The translations under genes and the position numbers were made by a program. Below, piece by piece: positions 18,767 to 42,493 of a stretch of DNA of 64,000 nt. Position 1 is the stretch's first letter. Each line of letters opens with the position of its first letter. Source of the stretch: a virus; IMG/VR virus record IMGVR_UViG_3300045988_146982, positions 1,038 to 65,037 of that record. One strand, given 5' to 3'. Under the pieces are notes generated by a model that searched no databases, was not told the origin of the DNA, and saw only the letters and a program-made list of their open reading frames with translations.

Positions 18767-21700
18767 TTATAATTTAGATGTATTGTTTTTCACTTCTGCC
18801 ATATCTTTCTGAATTTGAATGATTGGTTTTACAATAGCTCCTGTATTTTCCGAAATCTGTACCAATTCAAGATAAGATTGTGCTATCAAATCTCGCGTAT
18901 CATCAGCGATATTCCTTGTTTCCGTATTTATGGAAAGTAGAGCATCTGCTTTTACTGTCAGTAGATTAAGTGATTGAGATTGAATAATATTCTGATTCTT
19001 TATCTCTTCTCCTGCAATCTGCAATGCTGTAAACCGCCCGTTCAACTCTTCGCCGGTATCTTGACTCATTACCTGAAAGCCTTTGGATGAAGCTGACTGC
19101 GATGTTGATTCTTGCGAAATTTTATCATATCCGGTTGCTGCGGCAAGCTCGTCACGCAGTTTCATGGCTTCTTCAATGTAGCCCATATACTCAGCATTCA
19201 GCGCATTTCTTTCGGATTCCGTCAAAGAACCATCCTCCATACCCTTTGCGAATTTCTCATACCACTTCTTTAGCTTGTCCTGATAGAGTGCGCCTACCTG
19301 CTCGGAGAGCATAGCTCGCATGAAATATTCCGATATGTCTTCGGCAGCATCTTTGGATGATGCTTTCATATCCATTAAGGTATCTATAAAGTTACTGTAC
19401 ACACCATCGAATGTGGTTTGTGTAAGCTGCTCGTTTATCTGATTATGAATTTCCTCAATGCGTTCTTCCCCATCGATAATTTTATCAAGGTAATTTCTAA
19501 CATCCTCATCTAATTTAGCCCAAAAAGTAGGTGCTTCCGATTTAAGTCTCTCCAATTGTTCGGTAGAAAGGTCAAACAGGCTTTCCATTCTTCCGGTTGA
19601 GATTTCTTTAAACCACTGTTCGTCATTAAGAGCTTTGCGCGCTTCTTCCCATCCCTGTTCGGACATTCCCTTGCGAATTCGCACACCTATGGAGTGGGAA
19701 CCGGCTGATGAACCTGCGTTCAGTCTTTCTTTACCAAGAATACGGTAACTCTCAATACTTTTTTCCGCCAATTCTAAGGCTTCCTCTCCTACCTTATTAG
19801 CTTCAGCCCCGTAAGATGTGTTGATGTATTCCAACTTTTTGTCTATCAGTTCATCCCAAATATCGTTCAATAGGCTATATTGCTCTACCATCTCGTTATA
19901 ATGGGAATAGTCTGCACCGAACAGACCGTCAAGGGCAGACACAACAGATGACATTCCACTGACAGCACTCATGGCACCACCCACAATGTCACCGGACATA
20001 ATTTGACCGACACCGGCGGCTGTAGTACCCAATCCCCCTAAAGCATCGGTAATTCCTGTTATAGCGGAATCGCTGGCACCGAATATATTGGCGATGTTAG
20101 TGCCGAACTCACCCAACGCAGGAGCAAAAGACGTTACGGCATTTCCTATATCGGTGATGCCTTGACCGACTTTCTTGGAATCGTTGCCACCCTTTTTTAT
20201 GGCTTTTATCCCTTTCTCCAGGTCAGAGACGAAAGCCTGCCACGGTGATTTGCCTTTCAGCTCATCCTTTAGCCCCCTGATTGCATCCGTTACATCCTTT
20301 ATGGAGATTTCACCCTTTTCTATCTTTTCAATATCCTTATCAGTGAATCCGAGTGCTTTCAATTCGTCAAGTGTAACATTCGTTCCGTCACTTTCCTTTG
20401 TACCAGACATGTACTTGACAAGTGTTTCATACTTGTCAATAATAGTCTGAATGGCGGATACCGATTTATTGCCAGCGTCTTCAAAGAGGTCTGCCATTGC
20501 CTTTGCGGAGTGACCAAACTGTTCATCCAGTTGTTCTACAGCCTGATTCTTTTCGGCTACCTTGATAGCGTATTCAGGACTATCTGTGTGCAGCTTGGCT
20601 ATCTCATCATCATACTTCTGCACAAGGTTTTTTCGTTTCTCTTGATAGTTGCCAAACTCGATGAAGTATTCCTGCCAAGCCTTTTTGTCGGATTCAAACT
20701 TTTCTTTATTCAAATCGGAAATTGATTTGTCACGCTTACTTTCTGCCTGCGAATATGAAAGGGAAATCTGTATAAATTGTTCCTGAGTAAGTTTTCCACC
20801 ATTGGCTTTTGTCCATTCCTGTTCCTGCTTCCGAATAGCGTCCAGTTCTTTCTGATAGTCCAAGTCAATCTGAGCCAGTTTCTTTTCTGTTCCATCAGCC
20901 ATGAGGTTGATTTCATCCTGCTGGTTCTTACGGCGGAGGGAGAGAAGTTGTTCGGCAAGCTGTTCTTGCTGCTTAAGTCGGTTTTCGGCTTCTTCTTGAC
21001 GTCTTTTCCTTTCTTTTTCACCAATCTTTGAAGAATCTTCATTCGGGTTGAATATCAAATCATTGACATCTATGTTTTGTGCTAATTCATTTTGAGATTT
21101 ATTTAGCTCGTATATATCACGTCTAAGTTTAGCAATGCCTTCATCTATTTCTTCGACCTTACCCAAAGCTGCACCAACCATCATTTGTCGACCTGCATAT
21201 ATATCGGGATTTGCCTCTCTGTCTATTTTATTTCTTAATTCAATCTGTTTGTCAAGTTTTAGTTGCGCATTTTCTCTTTTAGCATATTCTTCTGTTATTT
21301 TAGCCTCATTTTCCAATATTTTTTTAGCATTCTCTGTCATTTTATCCTGTGCAGCCCTCGCACGTGCAGATGCAATAATCGAAGAAGTAAGTCTTGCATA
21401 AGCGTCAGCTGCCTTTCCCGTTAGAATTTCTTCTTCTGAAAGATTTTTGAAGAAATCAGGATATGATTTTTGTAGCTCATCAACAGCTTTTTTTCTTTCA
21501 CGAATAGGCTTTGAAGCATTTTGAGTAGCTTTATATAATAATTCCAACTTTGTTATTTCAGATTGAGCATTTTGAACTCCTTTTAATTGGACGTCATTTA
21601 GTTGTTGTTGAATATCAACAAGAGGTTTCATGACATTCTTAGCATTAAACAGCCCTGCAACCCAATCCACCGCCTTATCGCCATAAAGAGTAAGCAGTGT

Positions 21701-22759
21701 AATACCAACCGTTAATGCAGTCTGCCATGAGAATAAAGAAGAGGCAACCTGTTTCCACACCGGAGTAGCAGACTGCCCCGATTTTTTCAACAAATCATAT
21801 TCGATACGTGCACGCTTAATTTCATCGGCTAAAATTGGAAGGTTGTTAGAAATGGCAGAAAAAAACACTTTCGGACCGTAAGCCAAAGAAGGAAGTTCGC
21901 GTCCTACTTGCTGGATAGACATACTAAGTCCGTTCCACTGCTTGCCATAATTACCAACATTGCGTTGGTGATTGCCTATTGTCGCATCAAGCTCCTTAAT
22001 TTTTGCGTCAGCTTGATTAATGGAAGTAAGGAGTTCTTTTCCAAAAGGAGAATTACGCTCTTCTTCCGTCAGTTCACGATAAGCAATTCGCATCCTTGAC
22101 AAAGACTGCGACAGCCCTTTCATAGAAGTGGAGGCAACATTATCCAACTTGACATTATTATTCAGAGTTTGCCGTATCTCTGCCAAAGCCTCTTTGTGCG
22201 TCAGCAAGGAATTGTTTAGCTGTTCAAGCCGTTTTTGTTGAGCAGAAGACAAGGAAGAATAATCACCTTGTGACTTGTTGATTTTCTTGATTTCAACATT
22301 AATCAAACGGATAGCGTTCATTTCATCTATCATTCTCTTGACATTCTCTTCTCTTGTGCCAAGAATACCGTTTATCTCAGTTCTCAGGTCATCATAAGCC
22401 TTTGCTTGTGCTTGAATGCTTGCTGTTTCAGCTGTGTTTGTTTGTGTTGATGTATTTCCACTCTGTGTTGGAATCCCTGCTGGTTTAGAAACTTGTTCCT
22501 GCGCTTGAACAATCTTTTCAGTCGCCTTATTGATTCGGCTGGTTGAAAGCATGATTTTCGCTTCCGCTGCCGCTATTTTATCCACCAATACATCATATTG
22601 CCCAAGCAAAGAGGTAAGTTGTGATTGCAATCCTTTCGCTATATCAATATCCACTTTAATATTAATACCCATCAATGCTTTTTTGACATTTTCTATCTCG
22701 TTCTTCAGTTTGCGCAACTTCTGAACATCACTGTCTACATTTGAAATAATGCCTGCCAT
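18767..22759 (-). CDS. Tape measure protein
   Basis: 1330 aa, mostly coiled coil, with a glycine-rich hydrophobic block ITDALGGLGTTAAGVGQIMSGDIVGGAMSAVSGMSSVVSALDGLFG. Confidence 0.85.
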   Translation of the reverse strand: MAGIISNVDSDVQKLRKLKNEIENVKKALMGINIKVDIDIAKGLQSQLTSLLGQYDVLVDKIAAAEAKIMLSTSRINKATEKIVQAQEQVSKPAGIPTQSGNTSTQTNTAETASIQAQAKAYDDLRTEINGILGTREENVKRMIDEMNAIRLINVEIKKINKSQGDYSSLSSAQQKRLEQLNNSLLTHKEALAEIRQTLNNNVKLDNVASTSMKGLSQSLSRMRIAYRELTEEERNSPFGKELLTSINQADAKIKELDATIGNHQRNVGNYGKQWNGLSMSIQQVGRELPSLAYGPKVFFSAISNNLPILADEIKRARIEYDLLKKSGQSATPVWKQVASSLFSWQTALTVGITLLTLYGDKAVDWVAGLFNAKNVMKPLVDIQQQLNDVQLKGVQNAQSEITKLELLYKATQNASKPIRERKKAVDELQKSYPDFFKNLSEEEILTGKAADAYARLTSSIIASARARAAQDKMTENAKKILENEAKITEEYAKRENAQLKLDKQIELRNKIDREANPDIYAGRQMMVGAALGKVEEIDEGIAKLRRDIYELNKSQNELAQNIDVNDLIFNPNEDSSKIGEKERKRRQEEAENRLKQQEQLAEQLLSLRRKNQQDEINLMADGTEKKLAQIDLDYQKELDAIRKQEQEWTKANGGKLTQEQFIQISLSYSQAESKRDKSISDLNKEKFESDKKAWQEYFIEFGNYQEKRKNLVQKYDDEIAKLHTDSPEYAIKVAEKNQAVEQLDEQFGHSAKAMADLFEDAGNKSVSAIQTIIDKYETLVKYMSGTKESDGTNVTLDELKALGFTDKDIEKIEKGEISIKDVTDAIRGLKDELKGKSPWQAFVSDLEKGIKAIKKGGNDSKKVGQGITDIGNAVTSFAPALGEFGTNIANIFGASDSAITGITDALGGLGTTAAGVGQIMSGDIVGGAMSAVSGMSSVVSALDGLFGADYSHYNEMVEQYSLLNDIWDELIDKKLEYINTSYGAEANKVGEEALELAEKSIESYRILGKERLNAGSSAGSHSIGVRIRKGMSEQGWEEARKALNDEQWFKEISTGRMESLFDLSTEQLERLKSEAPTFWAKLDEDVRNYLDKIIDGEERIEEIHNQINEQLTQTTFDGVYSNFIDTLMDMKASSKDAAEDISEYFMRAMLSEQVGALYQDKLKKWYEKFAKGMEDGSLTESERNALNAEYMGYIEEAMKLRDELAAATGYDKISQESTSQSASSKGFQVMSQDTGEELNGRFTALQIAGEEIKNQNIIQSQSLNLLTVKADALLSINTETRNIADDTRDLIAQSYLELVQISENTGAIVKPIIQIQKDMAEVKNNTSKL

Positions 22760-22761
22760 AT

Positions 22762-23157
22762 CTATAATTTTTTTTCTATTTGTCTACCTGCATACAAGAT
22801 ACCATTAGTCATAATAACTTCAAACCCTTTACTTTCGACATAGCTTGCATAAGGCTGACCGTTAGCCAAATAAAGCCCATCCTTTGATTTTTCGGAATAA
22901 ATCAGAAGATTCTCTGTATTTCTTACCGCTTCGGAATGAGAACCGTCTGATTCCACCCACATATCTACTATTTTCCCATTACGGACAACACATCCCCCAT
23001 TTGCATTATTCAAGTTGCCAGTCCTATTTTCATAAGTCTTGTTAATCTTCGCATTTCGGGTGGCGTCTCTCCCTATTTGAGAAAGGGTATTATAATATCT
23101 ATCGTCTACACTTTCAAGTAACTCATCTAATCCAGATGTATCTCCTCTAAACTCCAT
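22762..23157 (-). CDS. HK97 gp10-like tail-completion-type protein (weak call)
   Basis: Shares the motif YASYVESKGFEV...YA with ORF 30734-31033 (YASFVESKGYDV...YA). Confidence 0.35.
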   Translation of the reverse strand: MEFRGDTSGLDELLESVDDRYYNTLSQIGRDATRNAKINKTYENRTGNLNNANGGCVVRNGKIVDMWVESDGSHSEAVRNTENLLIYSEKSKDGLYLANGQPYASYVESKGFEVIMTNGILYAGRQIEKKL

Positions 23158-23222
23158 TATTTTTTCATTTGTGCTAAATTCGACAAATACAAGTTATCCA
23201 GCAATATTTCAAGTATTTGATA

Positions 23223-23246
23223 TGCGACAACGGAATAATTGTCGTG
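23223..23246. repeat. Degenerate copy of the CACGACAAT palindrome family
   Basis: TGCGACAA cggaataa TTGTCGTG, about 70 nt upstream of the 23157 start. Confidence 0.45.
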
Positions 23247-23275
23247 AAATAATTGGAAATGATTGATTTTTGAGA

Positions 23276-23283
23276 TATTTTTG
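23276..23283 (+). promoter_or_regulatory. Bacteroides-type -7 promoter box for the lipoprotein moron
   Basis: TATTTTTG lies 30 nt upstream of ATG 23313. Confidence 0.5.
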
Positions 23284-23312
23284 CAAACGTTTAAGTTAAT
23301 AAATGTACTGTC

Positions 23313-24203
23313 ATGAAAAATACACTGCTTCTGATATTGTCAATATTTGCTTTTTCAAGTTGCAATAAGTCATATAAATATGTGGAAACGGTTAAAGAAA
23401 AGTCATTATTCAGCAACTCTTACAATGAGAAGGAGGAGGAACCTAAGACGATAAGCTCAAAGAATGATTCCCTTGCGTATTTAGAAGCATATCAAAAATT
23501 TTGCATTTCTCAAAAAGTTTATAAAGATATGACTAATCAAGGAATAGAGTTTGTTAATATTCCGATAAAATTCTCACTGTACAACTCAAACGGTGAAAAA
23601 GTAAATCCGTATATAAACCAATCAACCCTTGACAATATAAAAAATAATGTTATGTCTTTAGATGATAACATTGGAAAAACAATATCGGACATAAAAAAAG
23701 AAAAACAAAATCCTATTGATTCTATAACAGTAAAAAAAATATCCTCTTTATTTACATTTAACAAGGACGAATTTGACCCACGTGAACTAACATGGATTAA
23801 ACCAAAATCTGCTCCCCAATATACCAACCAGAATGGAATATATTGTTATTTTATGAAAGATATTGATGGGGTATCAAACTTTAGACTCAGAATACAATAT
23901 TATTCTGACGATTGGTTATTCATTCGCAAATATCAATTTTCTATTGACAATAAAGCTTATGAATTTATCCCCAATAATGTAGAAACTGATTCAGGTAATG
24001 GAGGATATATATGGGAATGGTGTGATGAAAATATCCATTCCAATAATGACATTGAATTAATAAAGGCACTTTCTAATGCTAAAACTGCAAAAATAAAATT
24101 TATTGGAAGGCAATATCACGATATAAAAACCATATCACAAAAACAGATTAAAGGAATAAAAGATGCCGTAAACTTATATCTCGCAATGGGAGGGAGTTTG
24201 TAA
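23313..24203 (+). CDS. Lipoprotein moron (296 aa) on the opposite strand
   Basis: Signal peptide plus lipobox MKNTLLLILSIFAFSSC, with its own promoter and a terminator. Confidence 0.7.
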   Translation: MKNTLLLILSIFAFSSCNKSYKYVETVKEKSLFSNSYNEKEEEPKTISSKNDSLAYLEAYQKFCISQKVYKDMTNQGIEFVNIPIKFSLYNSNGEKVNPYINQSTLDNIKNNVMSLDDNIGKTISDIKKEKQNPIDSITVKKISSLFTFNKDEFDPRELTWIKPKSAPQYTNQNGIYCYFMKDIDGVSNFRLRIQYYSDDWLFIRKYQFSIDNKAYEFIPNNVETDSGNGGYIWEWCDENIHSNNDIELIKALSNAKTAKIKFIGRQYHDIKTISQKQIKGIKDAVNLYLAMGGSL

Positions 24204-24215
24204 TATTCATATTAA

Positions 24216-24241
24216 GCGCACCCCAACCTAATGAGGTGCGC
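24216..24241. terminator. Bidirectional hairpin between convergent genes
   Basis: GCGCACC (24216-24222) pairs with GGTGCGC (24235-24241), between stop codons at 24203 (+) and 24250 (-). Confidence 0.5.
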
Positions 24242-24249
24242 ATTATTAT

Positions 24250-25071
24250 TTAAGCAGCATCTTTACCTAAGAACTTCTCTACAAAGTAAATCTGCCCTTT
24301 GCCAGTAACTTTTGTAGTAGTAGTTACCAATACAGAACCATCCGGCTTAGTGATTGATGTTTTCTTCAATTCAAAAAGCCCCAATTTCATGGCTTTCTGT
24401 GTCGGTTGATTGTAGTAGTCACCTTTTTGGCAAAGGTAGCCGTTTTCACGCATCCAGCTAAACAAACGGTTCTGACCGATATTCACTCCATTTTGTTGCA
24501 GTATCTTTGCTAATTCAGCAACCAAGCAAGAACGTTGAGAAGTTGAAACGGCATCGGCAAAAAGGACTTTAGGTGCATCTTTCTGAATCTTCTGTTCGGC
24601 TTCGATACGCTTCTGTTTTTCTTCTTTCAAGTTGGTTGCAAGCTGAATCAGAAAATCGGGTGAGGTCAAAGCCTTTTCAAGTGTATCGCTGGTCATGTAT
24701 GCACCATGTTTGCGGATTGAGGGCAAAACTTCATCGCAAACCCAATCTTGGAACTTTTCGGCATCCGGCAATTTAGATTTCATAGTTAAACGATAAACCT
24801 CGCTTTCCTTGCCGTACTTTATGTCTTGTACACCGCCATTTGTGGGGGTCGGCAAAATAACGACCCCTTTACAGTGTTGATTTACAGCATCGGCAGGGCT
24901 GCTATACCCAAGGGCTTTTGCAACATCTGCCAAACAAAACAACGGTTCTTCATTCTCATTCATAGCAATTCTTACTTTTCCGAACTGCTCATTTTGGAAA
25001 ATCTGAATATTATTCATACTTTTACACAGTTTTAAAAATTGAACCCCACCAAAGGACGCTCCTAACTTCAT
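24250..25071 (-). CDS. ant: Antirepressor (Bro-N domain + KilA-C/ANT domain)
   Basis: Bro-N-like IFQNEQFGKVRIAMNENEEPLFCLADVAKALGY. The C-terminal half fits the KilAC pattern (LVAELAKIL...NRLFSWMRENGYL). The probable true start, MNNIQIF, is at 25017. Confidence 0.8.
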   Translation of the reverse strand: MKLGASFGGVQFLKLCKSMNNIQIFQNEQFGKVRIAMNENEEPLFCLADVAKALGYSSPADAVNQHCKGVVILPTPTNGGVQDIKYGKESEVYRLTMKSKLPDAEKFQDWVCDEVLPSIRKHGAYMTSDTLEKALTSPDFLIQLATNLKEEKQKRIEAEQKIQKDAPKVLFADAVSTSQRSCLVAELAKILQQNGVNIGQNRLFSWMRENGYLCQKGDYYNQPTQKAMKLGLFELKKTSITKPDGSVLVTTTTKVTGKGQIYFVEKFLGKDAA

Positions 25072-25175
25072 CCGATGGCGGGGTTTATACTTTTCAGCTG
25101 TTAGGATAGCTGCGTTATTTCTGTTTGCGAATTTACCACTAACCGATTGCGTGACCTAAAAAGTGTCGTGCGTAG

Positions 25176-25201
25176 TCACGGCAATCAATCTATTGTCGTA
25201 A
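25176..25201. repeat. Copy of the CACGACAAT palindrome family (imperfect)
   Basis: TCACGGCAAT caatct ATTGTCGTAA, upstream of the antirepressor start. Confidence 0.5.
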
Positions 25202-25581
25202 ATTCGTTGCAAACTTATCTTATAATCGTGTGAAAGAAGAATTAGCGCCCATTGGGTTCGTGACATCAAAGCTATTGTCACAAAATAATTGGCGGTTCTC
25301 TAATTCTATGCTGTTTCATACTCATTTCTTTAATACTTCATCAATCATATTACGAAGTTCTTTTAATTCTTCTTCGGTCAATCCGTACACATTACCCAAT
25401 GCAGAAGGTTTCTCTATTTTAAGAGCGTATTTTACCCCCCCCTGTTGCTTTTCTATTGGTATGATACCGATACTAAATCGTTTACTCATTTCTTGTTACT
25501 TTTAAGTTTATTACTATGTTTCTAATCTCTGATTTGGTAGCTTGATTTGGCGGTGGTCTGATATTGAGGTTCATAATCGTG

Positions 25582-26070
25582 TTAATAAGCCATTGCATCA
25601 TATACCACACTAAGTTTCTCGTAAAACTCTTGTTCTGCTTCTTTGCTCATTTTGGCTCTCATAAAGTCCCTACAAGCACGGACAAGTTTCACGAACAAAA
25701 CCTTTTCAATCGGTTTATATGTTCTTATATCATTGATACCTAATGTAGCCGTTTTAACTCTTGGTATATAACTGTTGATGATACGGTAGTGACTGTTTTC
25801 TAATATCTTACCATTGGATTTAATACCGTTGAAATAGTATTTGCCTTTTACTTTTGCTATCCAATCATTTATCAGAATATTTCGGAAGCGTTTTTCTTTA
25901 TCGTCTTGAAAAGGATACACACTTCTATCACAATAGACTCTTGTAGCCGAAACAAGCTCTAAAAATACAACTTCATTAAATGGCATATAAGGTTGAAACT
26001 CTTTACATAATCTAATCAGTTGTAGTTGCTGCTTTATGTTCAATTTTTCAAAATACATTTTTGTATTCAT
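25582..26070 (-). CDS. Hypothetical protein (162 aa)
   Basis: ORF in the leftward island operon, preceded by the leader motif TTATGTGTTTATACTAT. Confidence 0.5.
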   Translation of the reverse strand: MNTKMYFEKLNIKQQLQLIRLCKEFQPYMPFNEVVFLELVSATRVYCDRSVYPFQDDKEKRFRNILINDWIAKVKGKYYFNGIKSNGKILENSHYRIINSYIPRVKTATLGINDIRTYKPIEKVLFVKLVRACRDFMRAKMSKEAEQEFYEKLSVVYDAMAY

Positions 26071-26189
26071 AATTTCTATATTTTATGTGTTTATACTATC
26101 TTTGTGACTAAATTCGTAGTGCGACATAATCGCATTATGTGTTTATACTATTTTGAGCGCATTGCCTGTGAAGGTGGTGCGCTCTTTGC

Positions 26190-26468
26190 TTACCACTGTT
26201 TTACCTGTTCTTTCAATTCATCATATTTGCCGTTCATCAGCATTTCAACTTCACGATGAAAGTTTATATCAGTCAGACGAAACTCTACTAAAGCACGCTT
26301 GTACGCATCGCCCTTTTGATGAGTATTAATAAGGCGCATCATCTGTGTGCTATCCAAACCATACTTGTTTTTGCGATTAAGGTTTGTAACCCTGCGTATA
26401 TCGCTTTCTCTTAGTTCAATTGTTGCCATAATCAAGCTATCTTTATAAGGTTGCACTTTTTGAAACAT
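26190..26468 (-). CDS. Hypothetical protein (probable start MATIELRE at 26429)
   Basis: The ORF track start overlaps the upstream gene. The internal ATG sits in a GATTATG context 3 nt after the upstream stop. Confidence 0.45.
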   Translation of the reverse strand: MFQKVQPYKDSLIMATIELRESDIRRVTNLNRKNKYGLDSTQMMRLINTHQKGDAYKRALVEFRLTDINFHREVEMLMNGKYDELKEQVKQW

Positions 26469-26761
26469 CTATACTCTTCTTTTTCAGTGTCCCAATACAC
26501 TTGCAGATTATCATTCAGTTTTCTGCCTGTACCTTTCACCTCACCGATAAGATTCTCTTTGAGAGTGCCAAAGGCTTGACGTAACGTGCCGTCAGTCTTT
26601 TTGAAGTAGAACTCTACTATCTTCACTTTCATCTCACCTTTCAACTTCAAATTAGCCCATGCGCATTTTAACGCTTCACTCATTGAATAACCGTTCTTGC
26701 GAACAAACTGCCATGCTAAACTCATGACCTCTTTCATCTGACTTCTAAATTTTGTGCTCAT
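26432..26761 (-). CDS. Conserved phage protein, paralogue of 59824-60150
   Basis: Shares EVMSLAWQFV..NGY.MSEA.K.AWANLKLKGEMK.KIV.FYFKK.DG...GTL...RCFKK.NL with the other copy. It is the first gene of a leftward operon. Confidence 0.6.
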   Translation of the reverse strand: MSTKFRSQMKEVMSLAWQFVRKNGYSMSEALKCAWANLKLKGEMKVKIVEFYFKKTDGTLRQAFGTLKENLIGEVKGTGRKLNDNLQVYWDTEKEEYRCFKKCNLIKIA

Positions 26762-26810
26762 ACTACTTATGTTTTATGTGTTAATACTATTTTGTTGTAC
26801 TTTCATGATG

Positions 26811-26922
26811 CAAACATACTACTTTAATAGTATAATCCAAAAAGAAAAGAACTATTTAATTAGTATATTAACCTTATTTAATACTATTATAATAGTACAA
26901 TACACAAAGAGACGTACCTTTG
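26811..26922. promoter_or_regulatory. Divergent promoter/operator region
   Basis: -7 boxes TATGTTTG (- strand, 26811-26818) and TACCTTTG (+ strand, 26915-26922). TACTA-N6-TAGTA dyads lie at 26817-26832 and 26882-26897; the second is a perfect 16-bp palindrome. Confidence 0.55.
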
Positions 26923-26944
26923 TATAAAATTAAAGTACACGATT

Positions 26945-27223
26945 ATGAATCTAAGAATTACCGAACACTGCAAAATGCAAGGCATCACCTTACAGGAATT
27001 AGCTGATAAAATGGGGGTAGCCCGTTCGACATTAGCTAATACATTATCAAAAGGCAATCCTACCATTGAAACCCTATCCAAAATAGCGGACGCTCTCGGA
27101 GTTGAAGTAACAGACCTATTTGAAAAATCTTCCGATGAAGTTATAGGAGTTGTCCGAATTGGAGATAGCACTCACGTTATCAATAGTAAGGAGGATATTA
27201 AGAAGTTAGCGGAAAAATTATAA
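26945..27223 (+). CDS. XRE/Cro-CI family HTH transcriptional regulator
   Basis: HTH segment ITLQELADKMGVARSTLANTLSKGNPTIETLSKIADALGV. Divergent from the leftward operon that ends in ant. Confidence 0.75.
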   Translation: MNLRITEHCKMQGITLQELADKMGVARSTLANTLSKGNPTIETLSKIADALGVEVTDLFEKSSDEVIGVVRIGDSTHVINSKEDIKKLAEKL

Positions 27224-27254
27224 ACTTAACTTAATAAAATAAGGAGGTAATACT

Positions 27255-27464
27255 ATGAGCGAAAAAAAATTCAAAGAATCTGATGTAGTAATAAATACAC
27301 AAAATGGGAAGGAGTATTATATTACTCAGATAGAAAAAGTGTATGATGCAGATTTAAAACATTCAGTTCCTACGGGATATGCTGAATGCCGTCCTAATAA
27401 TTTAGATGATAATCTGCCCGATTATAATAGATTCACTATTGACATTTTAGAACTAAAAAAATAA
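27255..27464 (+). CDS. Hypothetical protein (69 aa)
   Basis: ORF co-oriented with the HTH gene. Confidence 0.4.
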   Translation: MSEKKFKESDVVINTQNGKEYYITQIEKVYDADLKHSVPTGYAECRPNNLDDNLPDYNRFTIDILELKK

Positions 27465-27468
27465 AAAT

Positions 27469-27672
27469 ATGGAAAAGAAATATATTATAAAAGGAGTTTT
27501 AAATTCTTCTGTGCTATCTTTAAACTCTTATGGAACATACTGCTTAACAAATATTTCAGATATATACCACGAGGCAGAAAAAATTAAATTCTTTGATTCA
27601 AAAGAAGATGCGGAAAGCTACATTCTACAAAATAAACTTTCCCCAGTCACCATATTGGAAATTTTCATATAA
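27469..27672 (+). CDS. Hypothetical protein (67 aa)
   Basis: ORF 4 nt after the previous stop, followed by a strong terminator. Confidence 0.4.
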   Translation: MEKKYIIKGVLNSSVLSLNSYGTYCLTNISDIYHEAEKIKFFDSKEDAESYILQNKLSPVTILEIFI

Positions 27673-27676
27673 TAGT

Positions 27677-27698
27677 AAAGCCGGATTCCTCCGGCTTT
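27677..27698 (+). terminator. Intrinsic terminator hairpin
   Basis: AAAGCCGGA (27677-27685) pairs with TCCGGCTTT (27690-27698) around a 4-nt loop, a perfect 9-bp stem. Confidence 0.7.
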
Positions 27699-27707
27699 AA
27701 CTTTACT

Positions 27708-27914
27708 TTACCCATTAGCATTTCCCATATAAGTCTTACGAGAAACCTGCTTATTCCAACTCGTTCCATTCTTGTTGAAATTTCCCAAGTACCGCCCTGT
27801 AATCCGATTCACAAGATTATTAGGATTACTTGCATCACTTCCATAACGTCTTTCTGCGATTCTATTCGCTTGTCGGGCTATTTCCCAACCTGATTTAGTT
27901 TTTCTTCTTTTGAC
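27708..27914 (-). pseudogene. Start-less 68-codon open frame (possible gene remnant)
   Basis: Open frame VKRRKTKSGWEIARQANRIAERRYG...MGNANG with no ATG/GTG/TTG start. It is in the same frame as ORF 27960-28208 but separated from it by TAG, TAA and TGA. Confidence 0.25.
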
Positions 27915-27959
27915 TCAGCTTTTAATTTCAAAAAGTTAAACAATATAATTTCGCCATAT

Positions 27960-28208
27960 CTATTTCTTTTTCCTACGATTAGCCAATTCCTTACCACTGA
28001 TTCTATTCACTTTCTGACCACCATATACTGCGTGTAATTTATCCCGTTGCATCATCAGCAGATTCCGATAAGGGATAATCTCAAACACTTCTGTATAACT
28101 CAGATGCAACGTGTCAATCAAATGGGCTATCTGCCCGAAGAACGTTGTGTTTCCTACTGTTTCGGTTTTGCTGCCAGCATCGACACGTTCCTCATCGAGC
28201 TGACACAC
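27960..28208 (-). CDS. Tail assembly chaperone, -1 frame extension (T part of a G/GT pair)
   Basis: Overlaps 28154-28540 by 55 nt in the -1 frame (codon phase 1 to 2 mod 3 on the - strand). It lies downstream of the major tail gene. Confidence 0.55.
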   Translation of the reverse strand: MCQLDEERVDAGSKTETVGNTTFFGQIAHLIDTLHLSYTEVFEIIPYRNLLMMQRDKLHAVYGGQKVNRISGKELANRRKKK

Positions 28209-28540
28209 TGAAAAGCCGAAATATCCATCATAGAGAAACAGACTTCCAAGGCATCTTTGACTTCTTCAAAAGTGCCGTTCTCCAATTCTTTGACCAAACT
28301 ATCATTCCCGCAGATGAAGCATGAAATACCTTTCAGCATATCTTCAGTAGCTTCAGTAAGCTCTTTAATAGCCTCCATGATATTATCTCCTCGCAGGGCG
28401 ATATTGGAAAAATGATGAATGGCACGACAGATAACTTTAATTGTAGGCGGTTTGATGGTATAAACGATTCCACCTATCTCTACATTTTTAAAATCCAGCC
28501 CTAACAAGGCGTCAGAAACCGTTTTTGCTGCTTGATTCAT
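28154..28540 (-). CDS. Tail assembly chaperone (G-like)
   Basis: 128-aa acidic protein directly after the major tail gene, with an overlapping -1 frame ORF. Confidence 0.6.
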   Translation of the reverse strand: MNQAAKTVSDALLGLDFKNVEIGGIVYTIKPPTIKVICRAIHHFSNIALRGDNIMEAIKELTEATEDMLKGISCFICGNDSLVKELENGTFEEVKDALEVCFSMMDISAFQCVSSMRNVSMLAAKPKQ

Positions 28541-28557
28541 ATTCTTAAACTAAAAGA

Positions 28558-28580
28558 GGGAATGGCGCATATCCATTCCC
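28558..28580 (-). terminator. Hairpin after the major tail gene and its extension (attenuator-like)
   Basis: GGGAATGG pairs with CCATTCCC (8 bp, 7-nt loop), between the stop at 28588 and the chaperone start at 28540. Confidence 0.4.
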
Positions 28581-28587
28581 CCGGTTA

Positions 28588-28800
28588 TCACTCTTGTACT
28601 TTTACCAATGTTATCTCTTTTTTAAGAGTGGTATCAACTTCAGAAGGAGTGGTTTTAATATCTCCTGACTGAGTGACGTACCCCACTTTCGACACTTCAT
28701 AGTGAACGGTAGCTCCAGCATTCACCTGCTTTGACTTGACCGTTACACCGTCCAGCTTTACGGTCGCATCGGAAGGAGTAGGTACAATGGTTACTATAGT
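28588..28800 (-). CDS. In-frame 70-codon extension after the TGA of the major tail gene (Ig/PEGA-like beta domain); putative read-through product
   Basis: Hand translation: TIVTIVPTPSDATVKLDGVTVKSKQVNAGATVHYEVSKVGYVTQSGDIKTTPSEVDTTLKKEITLVKVQE, then TGA. It contains no Met and no internal stop. Confidence 0.5.
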   Translation of the reverse strand, partial: TIVTIVPTPSDATVKLDGVTVKSKQVNAGATVHYEVSKVGYVTQSGDIKTTPSEVDTTLKKEITLVKVQE

Positions 28801-29355
28801 TCATGCCTGCAAAGCTTTAATCTGCCCCTCTTCGTAGTTATACTCAGAAGAAACACCTTCAATTCCCGGTTCCTGCACCAAGCCTTTTACAGCGATTGCA
28901 ATTGCCTTATCCGTATTGGCTTCACGGGAAACAATACGGCATTTTGGGAAGATGAACCAGACATCATCATCGGTCAGACAGAACAATGCTTTGTTGATAA
29001 TAACTTTATCCAAAGCACGCTTCCAACCCACATCTTTAGATGTTGCCTGAATAACATCGCCACCCATGAACGCTTTCTTTGTCTTCCAGTCATATTGTCC
29101 GATAGAGAAAGTGGGTGATACTTCTCCCGGCACATCATCGAAACGGTAATTCTTTCCCGTTAATTGGTTCTTGTACCCAGTGACGGAGGCTTCCGTTTCC
29201 TCAATCTGCCACGTTTCCCCGTGTACATTCAAAACCTCATCTTTCGCTTTGATAGCGGCTTGAATCAAAGTCTTTGCGATTTCGGGGGTAATGTCTGCCG
29301 TTACCTTATCAATATCGGCAAACAAGATTCTTTTTATTCCTACTGCTGAAATCAT
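28801..29355 (-). CDS. Major tail protein (called by position)
   Basis: 184-aa ORF immediately upstream of the G/GT-type chaperone pair. Confidence 0.5.
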   Translation of the reverse strand: MISAVGIKRILFADIDKVTADITPEIAKTLIQAAIKAKDEVLNVHGETWQIEETEASVTGYKNQLTGKNYRFDDVPGEVSPTFSIGQYDWKTKKAFMGGDVIQATSKDVGWKRALDKVIINKALFCLTDDDVWFIFPKCRIVSREANTDKAIAIAVKGLVQEPGIEGVSSEYNYEEGQIKALQA

Positions 29356-29359
29356 AATC

Positions 29360-29770
29360 CTATAATTTTACATTTATTACTTTAAATAAAATTCTCACAT
29401 TCACGTAATGGCATTTCAAAGCTGTATCCGCTTCCGTGCCAATTGATTCGATAGAGTAACGATAGGTTGTACCGTCATAGGTACTTACTACATCATCAAG
29501 CAGCTTGCCAGCCTTTCTTTCAAGTTCGTTAAGCCGGATTGTGTTCGCTTCATTCTCGCTTAAATTGGGTACACATAGATTCACTTCTGCGAAAGATTTC
29601 TTCCAATACTTTCCCGGCTGTTGTTTCTTCGTGTGGATGACAATCCTTTCGGACTTCAATTCACCCGTCAACGTTTCACCATCAGGCACTATATCTATTC
29701 CGAAAGCCTTGCAGTCCCGATAGAGAATGTTTCCTATGTCGGTAGTTACTATCATTCCACAATCTCCCAA
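29360..29770 (-). CDS. Hypothetical protein (tail terminator / completion position)
   Basis: 136-aa ORF just upstream of the major tail gene. Confidence 0.35.
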   Translation of the reverse strand: MGDCGMIVTTDIGNILYRDCKAFGIDIVPDGETLTGELKSERIVIHTKKQQPGKYWKKSFAEVNLCVPNLSENEANTIRLNELERKAGKLLDDVVSTYDGTTYRYSIESIGTEADTALKCHYVNVRILFKVINVKL

Positions 29771-30342
29771 TCTTCTGCAAATACATCACTGATAGACGGA
29801 ACCCATGAATCAGCGCGTCCGGTATTCTCGTTGTAGATAAGACACTGGCTTGTATAGTCAATAAATCCCTTACCTTTCAGAATAAGGTCTTTTGCCGATT
29901 GGGGAAGCGATTGCATCTTAGGGATGATGTCGCTTTCGATATGAGCTGGCACTTGTTTGAATACCATCAAACCTTTACCGTTCCAACCACTTCTACGAAC
30001 AGCCCCACCTTGTTTTAACACTTCGATAGCATCACCGAAGCACATTACGGATGAATCGTCGGCTTTATCGTATGTTTTCTCAAAGATATCCGGCTTACAA
30101 GGATAAAACTCACCGTTTACTCCCTTGATGATGTAATCGCCATAGCTTGCAAGCATTTTGCCTTCAAGTGTTTCGATGTACACTCCAAGATAAGGCTCGT
30201 TGGTGTTGCCATGCTCATCTATACCGAAATCGGGATTGTGTTTCGGTACGGGAGTTCCACCCATGAAATCACATACAGCATCGAAATTATCTACTTTAAG
30301 CTGGACAGCTTCTATTACTACAGGTTTCTTTCTGTACTTCAT
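29752..30342 (-). CDS. Two-domain protein: N-terminal small phage beta-domain + C-terminal DUF2829 (Tad2-like) domain
   Basis: The C-terminal half, FGDAIEVLKQGGAVRRSGWNGKGLMVF...WVPSISDVFAEDWEIVE, fits the DUF2829 pattern. The N-terminus shows KKPVVIEAVQ...GDYIIKG...YPCKPDIFEKTY. Confidence 0.6.
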   Translation of the reverse strand: MKYRKKPVVIEAVQLKVDNFDAVCDFMGGTPVPKHNPDFGIDEHGNTNEPYLGVYIETLEGKMLASYGDYIIKGVNGEFYPCKPDIFEKTYDKADDSSVMCFGDAIEVLKQGGAVRRSGWNGKGLMVFKQVPAHIESDIIPKMQSLPQSAKDLILKGKGFIDYTSQCLIYNENTGRADSWVPSISDVFAEDWEIVE

Positions 30343-30344
30343 AA

Positions 30345-30737
30345 TTATAAGGATTGAATACGTTTAGATAATACCGCCTGATACCGAAGCATCAAATCAT
30401 ATTGTTCTCTCAGCAACTCACGTTGATTTGGGTCGGTGACAATAGTTTCAAACTTATCGGTCATAATAAATTCGTTCAGTTTATTACAGTGTTCAACCAA
30501 TTCTCCATGCTCAATAGCTAAACGGTCCTTAAATGTATCAGCTACTTTGTATGCCTTTTCAAACACATCTTTAGGAAGCCATGATTCAACACCATCATCA
30601 TATTTGGTATGATAACCTTCGATGGACTGTTCTTCCTTTGACAATCTTTCACCCACTGCAATAAGGCAGTTTTTGTCAGCTTCGCCCATTGTCATAGGTT
30701 CTGCTTCAATCTGTTTTGTTCCAATGTACTTTTTCAT
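30345..30737 (-). CDS. Hypothetical protein (130 aa)
   Basis: ORF packed between the head-tail genes. Contains the motif SWLPKDVFEKAY. Confidence 0.4.
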   Translation of the reverse strand: MKKYIGTKQIEAEPMTMGEADKNCLIAVGERLSKEEQSIEGYHTKYDDGVESWLPKDVFEKAYKVADTFKDRLAIEHGELVEHCNKLNEFIMTDKFETIVTDPNQRELLREQYDLMLRYQAVLSKRIQSL

Positions 30738-42389: not shown

Positions 42390-42421
42390 AATCGTGTCAA
42401 ATTTAAATTAATACTCAATAG

Positions 42422-42493
42422 TTGCGGGGGGCTGAATCGAACAACCGACCTTCACCAAGTCAAAGTGAAAAGCTACCACTGCTACACCCCGCG
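42422..42493 (-). tRNA. Phage tRNA with an initiator-type acceptor stem (C1xA72) but anticodon GAC
   Basis: Hand-folded 72-nt cloverleaf: CGCGGGG TG TAGC AGTGGTA GCTT T TCACT TTGACTT GGTGA AGGTC GGTTG TTCGATT CAGCC CCCCGCA A. Confidence 0.7.

What the first reader, a model, noticed from the sequence alone, without database searches (positions are those of the whole stretch)
28588..29355. In-frame Ig-like extension after the TGA stop of the major tail gene (candidate programmed read-through)
The putative major tail ORF ends ...GQIKALQA-TGA (28801-28803). The same frame stays open for exactly 70 more codons (28800-28591) before another TGA. The extension (TIVTIVPTPSDATVKLDGVTVKSKQVNAGATVHYEVSKVGYVTQSGDIKTTPSEVDTTLKKEITLVKVQE) looks like a small beta-sandwich (PEGA/Ig-like) and has no Met, GTG or TTG start. 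Ig-like domains are known to be appended to phage tail and head proteins by recoding, usually frameshifts. An in-frame UGA read-through would be an unusual route. A hairpin (28558-28580) follows the second stop.
Basis: partly seen in the sequence, partly recalled or inferred. Interest (0 to 1): 0.65.

Follow-up and report, generated by a model that had tools for sequence, protein, structure and literature searches.

The report
Leaky stop extends phage tail protein
A very common human-gut Bacteroides phage appears to make a minority of its tail-tube subunits about 8 kDa longer by reading through a conserved UGA stop codon into a small surface-display domain, a route so far described mainly for RNA phages such as Qbeta.

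Summary
The 184-codon tail-tube gene (29355..28804, minus strand) ends in TGA. Seventy sense codons follow in frame, then TGA-TAA and a terminator-like hairpin.

The extension is a true coding domain. It matches Pfam Head_fiber_dimeric (E=3.6e-14) and the distal part of crAss001 head fibre gp29. Between lineages its dN/dS is 0.05-0.25 in this frame and at least 1 in the other two.

In 308 related loci from four lineages, some with tail genes only about 30% identical, the domain always directly follows an in-frame TGA in the context NNA-TGA-ACN. Relatives without the domain mostly end in TAA or TAG followed directly by the terminator or the next gene. No start codon is conserved. Rare natural variants carry TGG or TTA instead of TGA and encode the 255/253-aa fusion.

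TGA is an ordinary stop elsewhere in the window. No suppressor tRNA, Rfam match or significant RNA structure was found.

Best reading: UGA read-through gives a minor 28-kDa tail-tube species carrying an exposed Ig-like domain. This resembles frameshift-appended Ig domains and Qbeta A1. It is a new variant of a known kind. No protein evidence exists yet.

The parts
28804..29355 (-). Major tail (tail-tube) protein ORF, 184 codons, 20.4 kDa
   Evidence: ORF. It matches phrog_14600 (E=1.6e-45) and equals BS-TP2 gp74 'tail protein', which lies between a DUF3168-like tail-terminator gene and the chaperone and tape-measure genes. The AlphaFold2 model hits the Bxb1 tail-tube chain 9d93_J, T5 pb6 and BFVD 'major tail proteins'.
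28801..28803 (-). In-frame TGA, the proposed leaky stop, in the context GCA-TGA-ACT (28806..28798)
   Evidence: Sequence. TGA is present in 207 of 208 close relatives and in all 308 tail-linked domain loci. In 36 unique junctions the -1 codon is GCA/GTA/ACA (always A before the stop) and the +1 codon is ACT/ACA/ACC. Rare sense variants are TGG (L003, L446-448) and TTA (L443-445).
28591..28800 (-). 70-codon extension encoding an HFD-like (Ig-like beta-sandwich) domain, 7.4 kDa; the fusion is 28.0 kDa
   Evidence: Pfam PF25641: E=3.6e-14, 52.8 bits, cut-off 30. PDB 7QOF gp29 residues 59-108: E=3.7e-8. Six predicted strands. dN/dS is 0.05-0.25 in frame 0 and at least 1 in control frames.
28585..28590 (-). 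Tandem stops TGA-TAA ending the extension
   Evidence: Other lineages end the extension with TAA or TAG.
28546..28582 (-). Intrinsic-terminator-like hairpin plus T tract, placed after the extension rather than after the first TGA
   Evidence: stem-loop 28582..28556, 10 pairs, then TTTTAGTTTA. BS-TP2 keeps the hairpin with changes on both arms. By my reading of the sequences, L002 and L226 have analogous G+C hairpin and T-run after the extension. In relatives lacking the domain a similar hairpin follows the TAA of the tail gene directly.

Best explanation
The tail-tube gene of this temperate Bacteroidales siphovirus (about 95% identical to Bacteroides phage BS-TP2 over the aligned region) is decoded in two ways.

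Most ribosomes terminate at UGA (28803-28801) and release the 184-aa, 20.4-kDa tube subunit. A minority insert an amino acid at UGA and continue in frame for 70 codons to UGA-UAA. The inserted residue is most likely Trp, from near-cognate tRNA-Trp. The product is a 255-aa, 28-kDa subunit whose C-terminus carries an HFD-like beta-sandwich domain.

Both forms would co-assemble into the tube, so each tail would display a sub-stoichiometric number of outward-facing domains. By analogy with lambda gpV-C, SPP1 gp17.1*, T4 Hoc and the crAss001 head fibre, these domains would mediate weak, reversible binding to surface glycans of the host or of mucus.

Shown by computation:
- the anatomy of the locus;
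- coding constraint on the extension in frame 0;
- strict association of the domain with an in-frame TGA and an A-TGA-AC context;
- absence of a conserved start codon;
- existence of natural sense-codon fusions;
- the tail-tube fold of the N-terminal part and the beta-sandwich fold of the C-terminal part.

Inferred:
- that read-through actually occurs, and at what frequency;
- which amino acid is inserted;
- that the long form is incorporated into virions;
- the binding function.
For: 1. The extension is a real domain: Pfam PF25641 above its cut-off and homology to crAss001 gp29 residues 59-108.
2. Purifying selection acts in the tail-gene frame only. dN/dS is 0.20-0.25 between lineages with dS 0.9-1.3, and 0.05 for L146 vs L152. 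Control frames give 1.0-6.6.
3. Four lineages share tail ORF + TGA + domain with zero spacer: the window type, L146/L152, L173 and L226. Their prophage hosts are Phocaeicola, Bacteroides, Prevotella and Paraprevotella. In total this is 308/308 tail-linked loci and 36 unique junctions, all NNA-TGA-ACN.
4. The tail proteins of the window and of the L146 lineage are only 28-31% identical, while the extensions are about 69% identical at the DNA level.
5. Relatives without the domain mostly end in TAA or TAG. These are the P0073 lineage, a 92%-identical tail gene in L440, and L441. In L440 and L441 the terminator hairpin follows at once.
6. No start is conserved. L146 and L152 have no ATG/GTG/TTG/CTG/ATN codon in the first 13 codons. 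The GTG of the L226 lineage is replaced by GCG or ACG in sister sequences.
7. Natural fusions exist: TGG in four independent samples on contigs up to 47.7 kb, and TTA in one study.
8. Sense variants are rare (1 in 208 close relatives), although one transition would create them. This argues that the stop itself is selected.
9. The terminator lies after the extension, so the extension is on the tail-gene transcript.
10. The domain corresponds only to the distal part of gp29. In crAss001 the capsid anchor is residues 1-58 (PMC10172136). A free 70-aa product would therefore lack an anchor.
11. The tail-tube family accepts C-terminal Ig-like domains: P0218 has a directly fused viral BACON domain.
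12. The annotated leaky stop of the Qbeta-type coat gene has the same 3' context, UGA-ACU.
Against: - There is no protein, ribosome-profiling or reporter evidence. The BS-TP2 paper reports no virion mass spectrometry.
- No stimulatory RNA structure was found. The fold z-score is 0.44, and the only consensus hairpin starts about 38 nt downstream and is invariant. Rfam gave no match.
- TGA-A is also the context of 8 of 18 ordinary TGA stops in the window, so the +4 base alone is not distinctive.
- Frame conservation could partly reflect common descent, because there is no spacer in which indels could accumulate.
- Two lineages carry a potential start within four codons of the stop (ATG in L173, GTG in part of L226). 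NCBI annotates the domain as a separate 66-aa ATT-initiated protein (P0121).
- Basal UGA leakiness in Bacteroidales is not known to me.
- Prophages with TGG or TTA are not proven to be viable.
Confidence: 0.72

Rival explanations
1. The domain is a separate small protein (about 66-70 aa). It would be translated independently by non-AUG initiation or by termination-reinitiation just after the tail-gene stop, and would then bind the virion non-covalently.
For: - NCBI annotates a 66-aa 'HFD-like domain-containing protein' starting at ATT (P0121).
- The L173 lineage has ATG at codon 4, and some L226-type sequences have GTG at codon 3.
- To my knowledge Bacteroidetes initiate with little reliance on Shine-Dalgarno pairing.
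- A few contigs carry indels that bring the overlapping gcATGa into frame (P0130).
Against: - No start-like codon is conserved, and L146/L152 have none in the first 13 codons.
- The GTG in the L226 lineage is lost in sister sequences that keep the domain.
- There is a zero-nucleotide spacer and the same frame in 308/308 loci.
- The stop is exclusively TGA, which independent initiation would not require.
- The domain lacks the N-terminal anchor that its crAss001 homologue uses.
- Natural TGG and TTA fusions exist.
- The P0135-P0144 type 'MNYS...' proteins start in the +1 frame and reach the domain frame only through indels, on mostly short (~1-5.5 kb) contigs.
Confidence: 0.13
2. The extension is a dead remnant. 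An ancestral fused tail-tube-domain gene acquired a nonsense mutation, and the downstream part is no longer expressed.
For: - Direct fusions exist in the family (P0218 with BACON), and rare TGG and TTA forms exist.
- One lineage (L222/L191) does carry a shortened 50-52-codon version evolving at dN/dS 0.5-0.7, which looks like decay.
- In-frame stops are enriched in prophage genes generally (PMC7918605).
Against: - The full-length domain has dN/dS 0.05-0.25 with dS up to 1.3, and no frame-disrupting change in about 300 loci of four lineages.
- It still scores above the Pfam cut-off.
- The contrast with the truly relaxed short version shows what decay looks like here.
- TGA, never TAA or TAG, is unexpected for random nonsense mutations fixed independently or kept over this divergence.
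Confidence: 0.06
3. TGA is not a stop at this position. Either the phage or host uses a code in which TGA is a sense codon (Trp or Gly), a suppressor tRNA acts, or the codon specifies selenocysteine. Every subunit would then carry the domain.
For: - Stop-codon reassignment occurs in some gut phages (my knowledge; mentioned).
- Some pipelines translated short contigs with table 4 (P0125 and P0128 end in ...QEW).
Against: - 18 of 69 long ORFs in the window end in TGA, several in ATGA overlaps with the next gene.
- The extension itself ends in TGA in the window lineage.
- Homologues without the domain terminate at the same alignment position with TAA or TAG.
- The only tRNA in the window is Val-GAC. 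No tRNA genes are annotated in the parts of BS-TP2 inspected (record 1-50,670).
- No hairpin lies directly after the UGA, as a bacterial SECIS would require.
- The sense variants are Trp and Leu, not Cys.
- The hosts are ordinary Bacteroidales.
Confidence: 0.04

Closest known systems
Qbeta (Qubevirus) A1 read-through protein: coat gene UGA read through at a few per cent to give a minor, essential, extended coat protein
   Same: In both, in-frame UGA read-through of the most abundant virion subunit gene yields a minor C-terminally extended species that co-assembles with the short form. The 3' context is the same: UGA-ACU in record NC_001890, whose annotation says 'leaky stop codon ... 5% chance'. 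Trp is the expected inserted residue (my knowledge for Qbeta; here only a natural TGG variant supports it).
   Different: Qbeta is an ssRNA levivirus of E. coli and the extended protein is a capsid protein. Here it is a dsDNA temperate siphovirus of Bacteroidales and the protein is the tail tube. The extensions are unrelated: 196 aa in Qbeta against a 70-aa HFD-like domain here. Read-through is demonstrated experimentally for Qbeta and only inferred here.
Ig-like domains appended to phage major tail or capsid proteins by programmed +1 or -1 frameshifting (SPP1 gp17.1*, Listeria phages A118/A500/PSA, Lactobacillus phage A2, T3 10B; Fraser et al. 2006; reviewed in PMC5009743)
   Same: The logic and outcome are the same. 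A small accessory beta-sandwich domain is encoded just 3' of the major structural gene and is added to only a fraction of subunits by recoding. The domain is mobile and promiscuous: it occurs as up to 14-16 tandem repeats in large proteins.
   Different: There is no change of frame and no slippery heptamer; the recoding event is stop-codon redefinition. The review describes frameshifting or plain in-frame fusion as the routes to Ig-like extensions and does not list read-through for phage Ig-like domains.
Directly fused C-terminal Ig-like domains of tail-tube proteins (lambda gpV C-domain, T5 pb6, Bxb1 tail tube) and P0218 of this family (viral BACON domain)
   Same: The position is the same (C-terminus of the tube protein, expected on the outside of the tube) and so is the presumed accessory adhesion role. 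The model's best PDB matches are Bxb1 and T5 tube proteins. P0218 shows the same tube family with a fused BACON domain.
   Different: In those proteins every subunit carries the domain. Here a conserved stop limits it to a minority, and constitutive TGG or TTA fusions are rare.
crAss001 head fibre dimer protein gp29 (HFD; Pfam PF25641; PDB 7QOF)
   Same: The domain is homologous: window extension residues 3-51 align to gp29 residues 59-108, E=3.7e-8. Both come from Bacteroidales gut phages.
   Different: gp29 is a separate protein anchored in capsid hexons by its own N-terminal 58 residues. Here the domain has no anchor of its own and sits behind the tail-tube gene.

Membership tests
Programmed stop-codon read-through (recoding) | A second ORF continues in the same frame directly after a stop codon, with no initiation codon of its own | tested here: met
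   70 sense codons directly follow the TGA. No ATG, GTG or TTG occurs before codon 26, and no start-like codon is conserved across lineages.
Programmed stop-codon read-through (recoding) | The stop codon and downstream frame are conserved, with purifying selection on the downstream codons | tested here: met
   TGA in 308/308 tail-linked loci of four lineages. dN/dS is 0.05-0.25 in frame against at least 1 out of frame.
Programmed stop-codon read-through (recoding) | Leak-prone stop context and/or a 3' stimulatory RNA structure | tested here: inconclusive
   The A-UGA-AC context is invariant and shared with the Qbeta-type leaky stop. However, TGA-A is common among ordinary stops in the window, and no significant structure was found.
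Programmed stop-codon read-through (recoding) | The extended protein is detected at sub-stoichiometric level, and the inserted amino acid is identified | not testable with these tools
   No proteomic data: the BS-TP2 paper reports no mass spectrometry. Natural TGG and TTA variants only show that Trp or Leu fusions exist on assembled contigs.
Frameshift-appended Ig-like domains of phage structural proteins (Fraser et al. 2006 type) | An accessory Ig-like or beta-sandwich domain at the C-terminus of a major virion protein | tested here: met
   PF25641 hit. Six-strand beta model with pLDDT about 70-83. The N-terminal part matches tail-tube proteins.
Frameshift-appended Ig-like domains of phage structural proteins (Fraser et al. 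2006 type) | The domain lies in the +1 or -1 frame and is reached via a slippery site | tested here: not met
   The domain is in frame 0 in all loci. The other frames close after 15-34 codons and are not conserved (my reading of the sequences).
Pfam PF25641 Head_fiber_dimeric (HFD-like) domain | Score above the curated gathering threshold | tested here: met
   52.8 bits against a cut-off of 30, E=3.6e-14, covering profile positions 5-53 of 61. The PDB 7QOF gp29 match has E=3.7e-8.
Siphovirus tail-tube (major tail) protein | Gene position between the tail terminator and the chaperone/tape-measure genes, and a tail-tube fold | tested here: met
   Synteny in BS-TP2 and in the window. Foldseek top hits are Bxb1, T5 and Chi tail-tube chains and BFVD 'major tail proteins', with probability about 1.0 but modest TM-scores of 0.35-0.42. 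There is no Pfam family for the 184 aa.
Stop-codon reassignment (TGA as sense; table 4/25) or phage suppressor tRNA | TGA occurs inside many conserved ORFs and is not used as a terminator; a cognate tRNA is present | tested here: not met
   18 of 69 ORFs end in TGA. The only tRNA is Val-GAC. Homologues end at the same position with TAA or TAG.
Bacterial selenoprotein (UGA = Sec) | A SECIS hairpin immediately 3' of the UGA, and Cys-containing homologues | tested here: not met
   No hairpin lies in the first ~34 nt after the UGA. The sense variants are Trp and Leu, not Cys. Host Sec machinery was not examined.

The most novel reading that the evidence does not exclude
The invariant A-UGA-AC junction is a dedicated read-through signal that works in Bacteroidales ribosomes, and its efficiency has been tuned by selection. 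This would be the first programmed stop-codon read-through in a virion gene of a tailed dsDNA phage. A whole group of highly prevalent human-gut temperate phages would use it to set how many glycan-binding domains decorate each tail. It might respond to host physiology, for example RF2 or tRNA-Trp status.
Probability: 0.4. Interest if true: 0.75.

Novelty: new variant of a known kind. Interest (0 to 1): 0.62.

Why it matters
- Adding accessory Ig-like domains to a fraction of phage structural subunits is a known strategy, but the known routes are frameshifting or plain fusion. A conserved UGA read-through in a tailed dsDNA phage would add a third route. It would also extend a mechanism best known from Qbeta and eukaryotic viruses to Bacteroidales, where translational recoding is almost unstudied.
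- The phage is not obscure. BS-TP2 was detected in 33.5% of 930 healthy-donor viromes (PMC12694917), and I found more than 300 related loci.
- The domain is unannotated in the BS-TP2 record. Elsewhere it is called as an orphan 47-71-aa ORF. Annotation pipelines therefore systematically miss the long tail protein.
- BS-TP2 and its host are in culture, so the prediction is directly testable.
- Natural TGG, TTA and domain-less relatives provide ready-made comparison genotypes for asking what tail decoration does in the gut.

Tried and rejected
- Alternative genetic code or suppressor tRNA. Rejected: TGA terminates 18 of 69 ORFs, and the only tRNA is Val-GAC.
- Selenocysteine. Rejected: no proximal hairpin, and the sense variants are Trp and Leu.
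- Stimulatory RNA structure. The fold z-score is 0.44. The alifold hairpin is 38 nt downstream, with invariant core pairs and only a single flanking pair showing compensatory change, so it is uninformative. There is no Rfam match.
- The overlapping gcATGa start in the +1 frame. It gives 34 codons in the window and 15 in L002 (my reading of the sequences) and is not conserved. 'MNYS...' proteins in databases reach the domain frame only through indels.
- Stop-hopping. No matching landing codon for GCA lies nearby (sequence). Transcriptional slippage is also unlikely, as there is no homopolymer run at the junction.
- The word-indexed homologue search with the 70 aa alone returned only 10 fragmentary ORF calls and was uninformative about architectures. 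The exhaustive representative search was needed.
- W-containing proteins P0125 and P0128 turned out to be table-4 translation artefacts (they end in ...QEW) and were not counted as sense variants.
- Five of seven full-text literature searches targeted a prior description of read-through-appended domains on tailed-phage structural proteins and found none. The library lacks most subscription journals, so absence is not proof.
- I did not use the metagenome-contig scan. The top-80 ranking would have been saturated by the abundant lineages already sampled.
Full report

Yes. On the minus strand an ORF runs from 29355 to 28801 (184 aa...GQIKALQA). TGA lies at 28803-28801. The same frame then stays open for exactly 70 codons (28800-28591, TIVTIVPTPSDATVKLDG...LVKVQE) and ends in TGA-TAA (28590-28585). 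A terminator-like hairpin follows at 28582..28556, with 10 pairs and a T tract.

The extension does contain an in-frame GTG at its codon 26, which ORF listing reports as a 45-aa ORF (28588..28725). That GTG lies inside the domain. No ATG, GTG or TTG lies near the start of the extension.

**2. What the two parts are**

*The 184-aa protein.*
- It has no Pfam family but matches phrog_14600 (E=1.6e-45).
- It equals gp74 'tail protein' of Bacteroides phage BS-TP2 (95.5% DNA identity over the region).
- It lies between head-tail connector/terminator-like genes and a chaperone pair plus tape-measure gene.
- An AlphaFold2 model of the natural fused form (mean pLDDT 73) finds tail-tube proteins: the Bxb1 tail-tube chain, T5 pb6, Chi and many BFVD 'major tail proteins'. 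Probabilities are about 1.0 and TM-scores are modest.
- I accept it as the tail-tube protein.

*The 70-aa extension.*
- It matches Pfam PF25641 (Head_fiber_dimeric) at E=3.6e-14, 52.8 bits against a cut-off of 30.
- It aligns to residues 59-108 of the crAss001 head-fibre protein gp29 (PDB 7QOF, E=3.7e-8).
- In crAss001, residues 1-58 of gp29 anchor the fibre in the capsid hexon and the distal part projects outward (PMC10172136). The window extension is therefore homologous to an exposed fibre domain but lacks that protein's anchor.
- The model predicts six beta strands.
- Elsewhere the domain occurs as up to 14-16 tandem repeats in large proteins. It also occurs inside 450-790-aa proteins of Muribaculaceae, Phocaeicola, Clostridia and Bacilli MAGs. 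It is a typical promiscuous surface module.

**3. Comparative evidence**

*Close relatives.*
- All 81 IMG/VR loci keep TGA plus 70 codons (68 in two of them).
- A pattern scan gave TGA in 118/118 further loci, and in 207 of 208 overall.

*Divergent lineages.* Three further lineages have the same architecture.
- L146/L152 (Paraprevotella prophages) and L173 read ...KVDAA-TGA-TTVTVTPTPSDATVK..., with 70-71 codons.
- L226 (Prevotella/Bacteroides) reads ...EEVKEA-TGA-TDVKVIATPSD..., with 71 codons.

*Domain-centred census.*
- A search that ignored the tail gene found 310 locus rows with the domain motif. Of these, 308 are a tail ORF of 176-188 codons, then TGA, then the domain, with no spacer.
- The two others are a TGG variant and an unrelated large protein.
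- In 36 unique junctions the codon before the stop is GCA, GTA or ACA. The amino acid changes but the last base is always A.
- The codon after the stop is ACT, ACA or ACC.

*Selection.*
- Variable sites by codon position are 25/23/56.
- Pairwise dN/dS in the tail-gene frame is 0.20-0.25 between lineages (dS 0.9-1.3) and 0.05 for L146 vs L152. The two other frames give 1.0-6.6.
- The tail proteins of the window and of L146 are only 28-31% identical, while the extensions are about 69% identical at the DNA level. The domain, with its TGA junction, is much better conserved than the gene it follows, or has moved with the junction intact.

*Relatives without the domain.*
- The P0073 lineage (about 68% identical to the window protein) ends in TAA or TAG with only 1-6, occasionally 25, further in-frame codons before the next stop, or with the in-frame chaperone gene following directly, and no domain.
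- A 92%-identical tail gene (L440) and L441 end in TAA followed directly by the terminator hairpin.
- Exceptions with TGA but no domain exist (L160 type, L142). TGA is therefore not sufficient, but whenever the domain is present the stop is TGA.

*A decaying version.* One lineage (L222/L191) carries a shortened 50-52-codon version that evolves at dN/dS 0.5-0.7, against 0.00-0.05 for its tail gene. This is what relaxation looks like here, and it contrasts with the constrained full-length domain.

**4. Start codons and sense variants**

- No initiation codon is conserved at the start of the extension. The window has only ATA and ATT, and the common window type only ATT. L173 has ATG at codon 4 and L226 has GTG at codon 3. 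L146 and L152 have nothing among ATG/GTG/TTG/CTG/ATN in 13 codons.
- The L226 GTG is GCG or ACG in sister sequences that keep the domain.
- Database 'proteins' for this region are caller artefacts of three kinds. One is an ATT-initiated 66-mer in NCBI Phocaeicola vulgatus genomes. Another is the 'MNYS...' set of products that start at the overlapping gcATGa in the +1 frame and reach the domain only through indels. The third is table-4 translations ending ...QEW.
- Genuine sense variants exist. GCA-TGG-ACT occurs in four independent samples (L003, L446-448; contigs up to 47.7 kb). GCA-TTA-ACT occurs in three runs of one study (L443-445). All were translated with the standard code, because they stop at the terminal TAA or TGA.
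- These variants encode exactly the predicted 255- or 253-aa fusion.
- They are rare (about 1 in 200), although a single transition would create TGG. This suggests that the stop itself is maintained by selection. In other words, a mixture of short and long subunits would be favoured over an all-long tube.

**5. Alternatives**

- *Code reassignment or a suppressor.* This is excluded for practical purposes. TGA ends 18 of 69 long ORFs in the window, often in ATGA overlaps. The only tRNA is Val-GAC. The extension itself ends in TGA.
- *Selenocysteine.* This is unlikely. No hairpin lies directly after the UGA, and the sense variants are Trp and Leu rather than Cys.
- *RNA stimulators.* No known RNA family and no significant structure follows the stop. 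The only consensus hairpin starts about 38 nt downstream. Its core pairs are invariant and only one flanking pair covaries, so it is uninformative. Read-through would therefore rest on the local context and on intrinsic UGA leakiness.
- *Context.* The annotated leaky stop of the Qbeta-type coat gene reads TAC-TGA-ACT, the same UGA-AC. However, TGA-A is also common among ordinary stops here, so I treat the context as suggestive only.
- *Independent initiation of a free 7-kDa domain.* This remains the main rival (about 0.13). It does not explain the TGA exclusivity, the zero spacer, the lack of a conserved start or the lack of an anchor.
- *Pseudogene remnant.* This is contradicted by the selection data.

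**6. Mechanism proposed**

- Most ribosomes terminate at UGA and release the 20.4-kDa tube subunit.
- A minority decode UGA, probably as Trp via near-cognate tRNA-Trp as known in enterobacteria (summarised in PMC7918605). They then add the 7.4-kDa domain, giving a 28.0-kDa subunit.
- The terminator hairpin lies after the extension, so both products come from the same mRNA.
- The window's tape-measure protein is 1330 aa. By the usual ~1.5 Å per residue rule this implies a tail of roughly 200 nm and a few hundred tube subunits. One to five per cent read-through would then place a handful to about fifteen domains on each tail. These numbers are my inference, not a result.
- The function is inferred by analogy with lambda gpV-C, SPP1 gp17.1*, T4 Hoc and the crAss001 head fibres: weak, reversible adhesion to glycans.
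- The tube family tolerates C-terminal Ig-like domains. P0218, a distant homologue, has a directly fused viral BACON domain.

**7. Comparison with what is known, and novelty**

- Functionally this works like the frameshift-appended Ig-like domains of phage tail and head proteins. The recoding review PMC5009743 describes frameshifting or plain in-frame fusion as the routes and does not mention read-through for them.
- Mechanistically it resembles Qbeta A1.
- It fails the defining feature of the frameshift class (change of frame). It meets the sequence-level features of programmed read-through. The protein-level feature could not be tested.
- Five full-text searches for a prior description in tailed phages found none, but the library is incomplete.
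- I rate it a new variant of a known kind.

**8. Verdict**

- Confidence that the extension is expressed in frame with the tail gene is about 0.85.
- Confidence that UGA read-through is the mechanism is about 0.72.
- Interest is 0.62. The case is clean, conserved and testable, it sits in a very prevalent gut phage, and it is currently missed by annotation. The principle itself is not unprecedented.

Noticed in passing
window 28540..28154 (-) and 28208..27960 (-): The next two ORFs are 128 aa (phrog_13669) and 82 aa (phrog_14740). They overlap by 55 nt, with the second in the -1 frame. This is the layout of the lambda G/GT tail-assembly-chaperone frameshift. I saw no canonical X_XXY_YYZ heptamer in the overlap (...GCA GCA AAA CCG AAA CAG TAG). 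BS-TP2 annotates only the first ORF.
   Followed up: partly
window 29752..30342 (-); also 30345..30737 (-): A 196-aa ORF inside the head-tail module carries a Tad2-like (Thoeris anti-defence) domain, PF11195 at E=1.1e-18. About 120 nt of it is 74-79% identical at the DNA level to Streptococcus phages and SPO1-like Bacillus phages (gp34.82). That is unusually high cross-phylum nucleotide conservation. The neighbouring 130-aa ORF has a crAss001_48 ('Sequestin') domain, PF21825.
   Followed up: partly
window 22760..27960: About 5 kb of small genes on both strands (HTH regulator at 26945-27223 and others) lies between the chaperone genes and the tape-measure gene (22759..18767, 1330 aa). BS-TP2 has the tape-measure gene directly after the chaperone, and relative L226 has a HicA toxin gene there. 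The window's tape-measure protein matches BS-TP2 gp77 over its C-terminal ~430 residues (48% identity overall; the last ~100 residues nearly identical), and its N-terminal ~900 residues show no significant match, so it is mosaic.
   Followed up: partly
L222, L213, L191, L200, L189 and relatives (IMG/VR), directly after the tail gene: One sub-lineage keeps TGA plus an in-frame but shortened 50-52-codon version of the domain (for example TDEKVAIASSES...VNAGSAVNY...SETLSIL). It evolves at dN/dS 0.5-0.7, while its tail gene is at 0.00-0.05. L204 has a stop after 10 codons. This looks like a read-through extension in decay.
   Followed up: yes
L003; L446-L448 (TGG); L443-L445 (TTA): Natural variants carry Trp or Leu codons in place of the TGA and give constitutive 255- or 253-aa fusions. 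TGG appears on different sequence backgrounds in four samples. These are ready-made 'all-long' genotypes.
   Followed up: yes
P0218 (261 aa), P0169 (303 aa), P0145 (1366 aa): Distant tail-tube homologues carry other C-terminal additions: a directly fused viral BACON domain in P0218 and an unassigned 110-aa extension in P0169. P0145 has 14 tandem HFD-like repeats followed by an RCC1 propeller, so the domain is also used in very large proteins.
   Followed up: partly
window 42421..42493 (-): A single tRNA-Val (GAC) gene is the only tRNA in the 64-kb window. It may mark a prophage boundary or attachment site. I did not examine it.
   Followed up: no
NCBI proteins P0121/P0122 (Phocaeicola vulgatus, 87 and 16 contigs): Public annotation calls the extension as an independent 66-aa 'HFD-like domain-containing protein' starting at an ATT codon. 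In BS-TP2 the region is left unannotated. Either way the long tail protein is missing from databases.
   Followed up: yes
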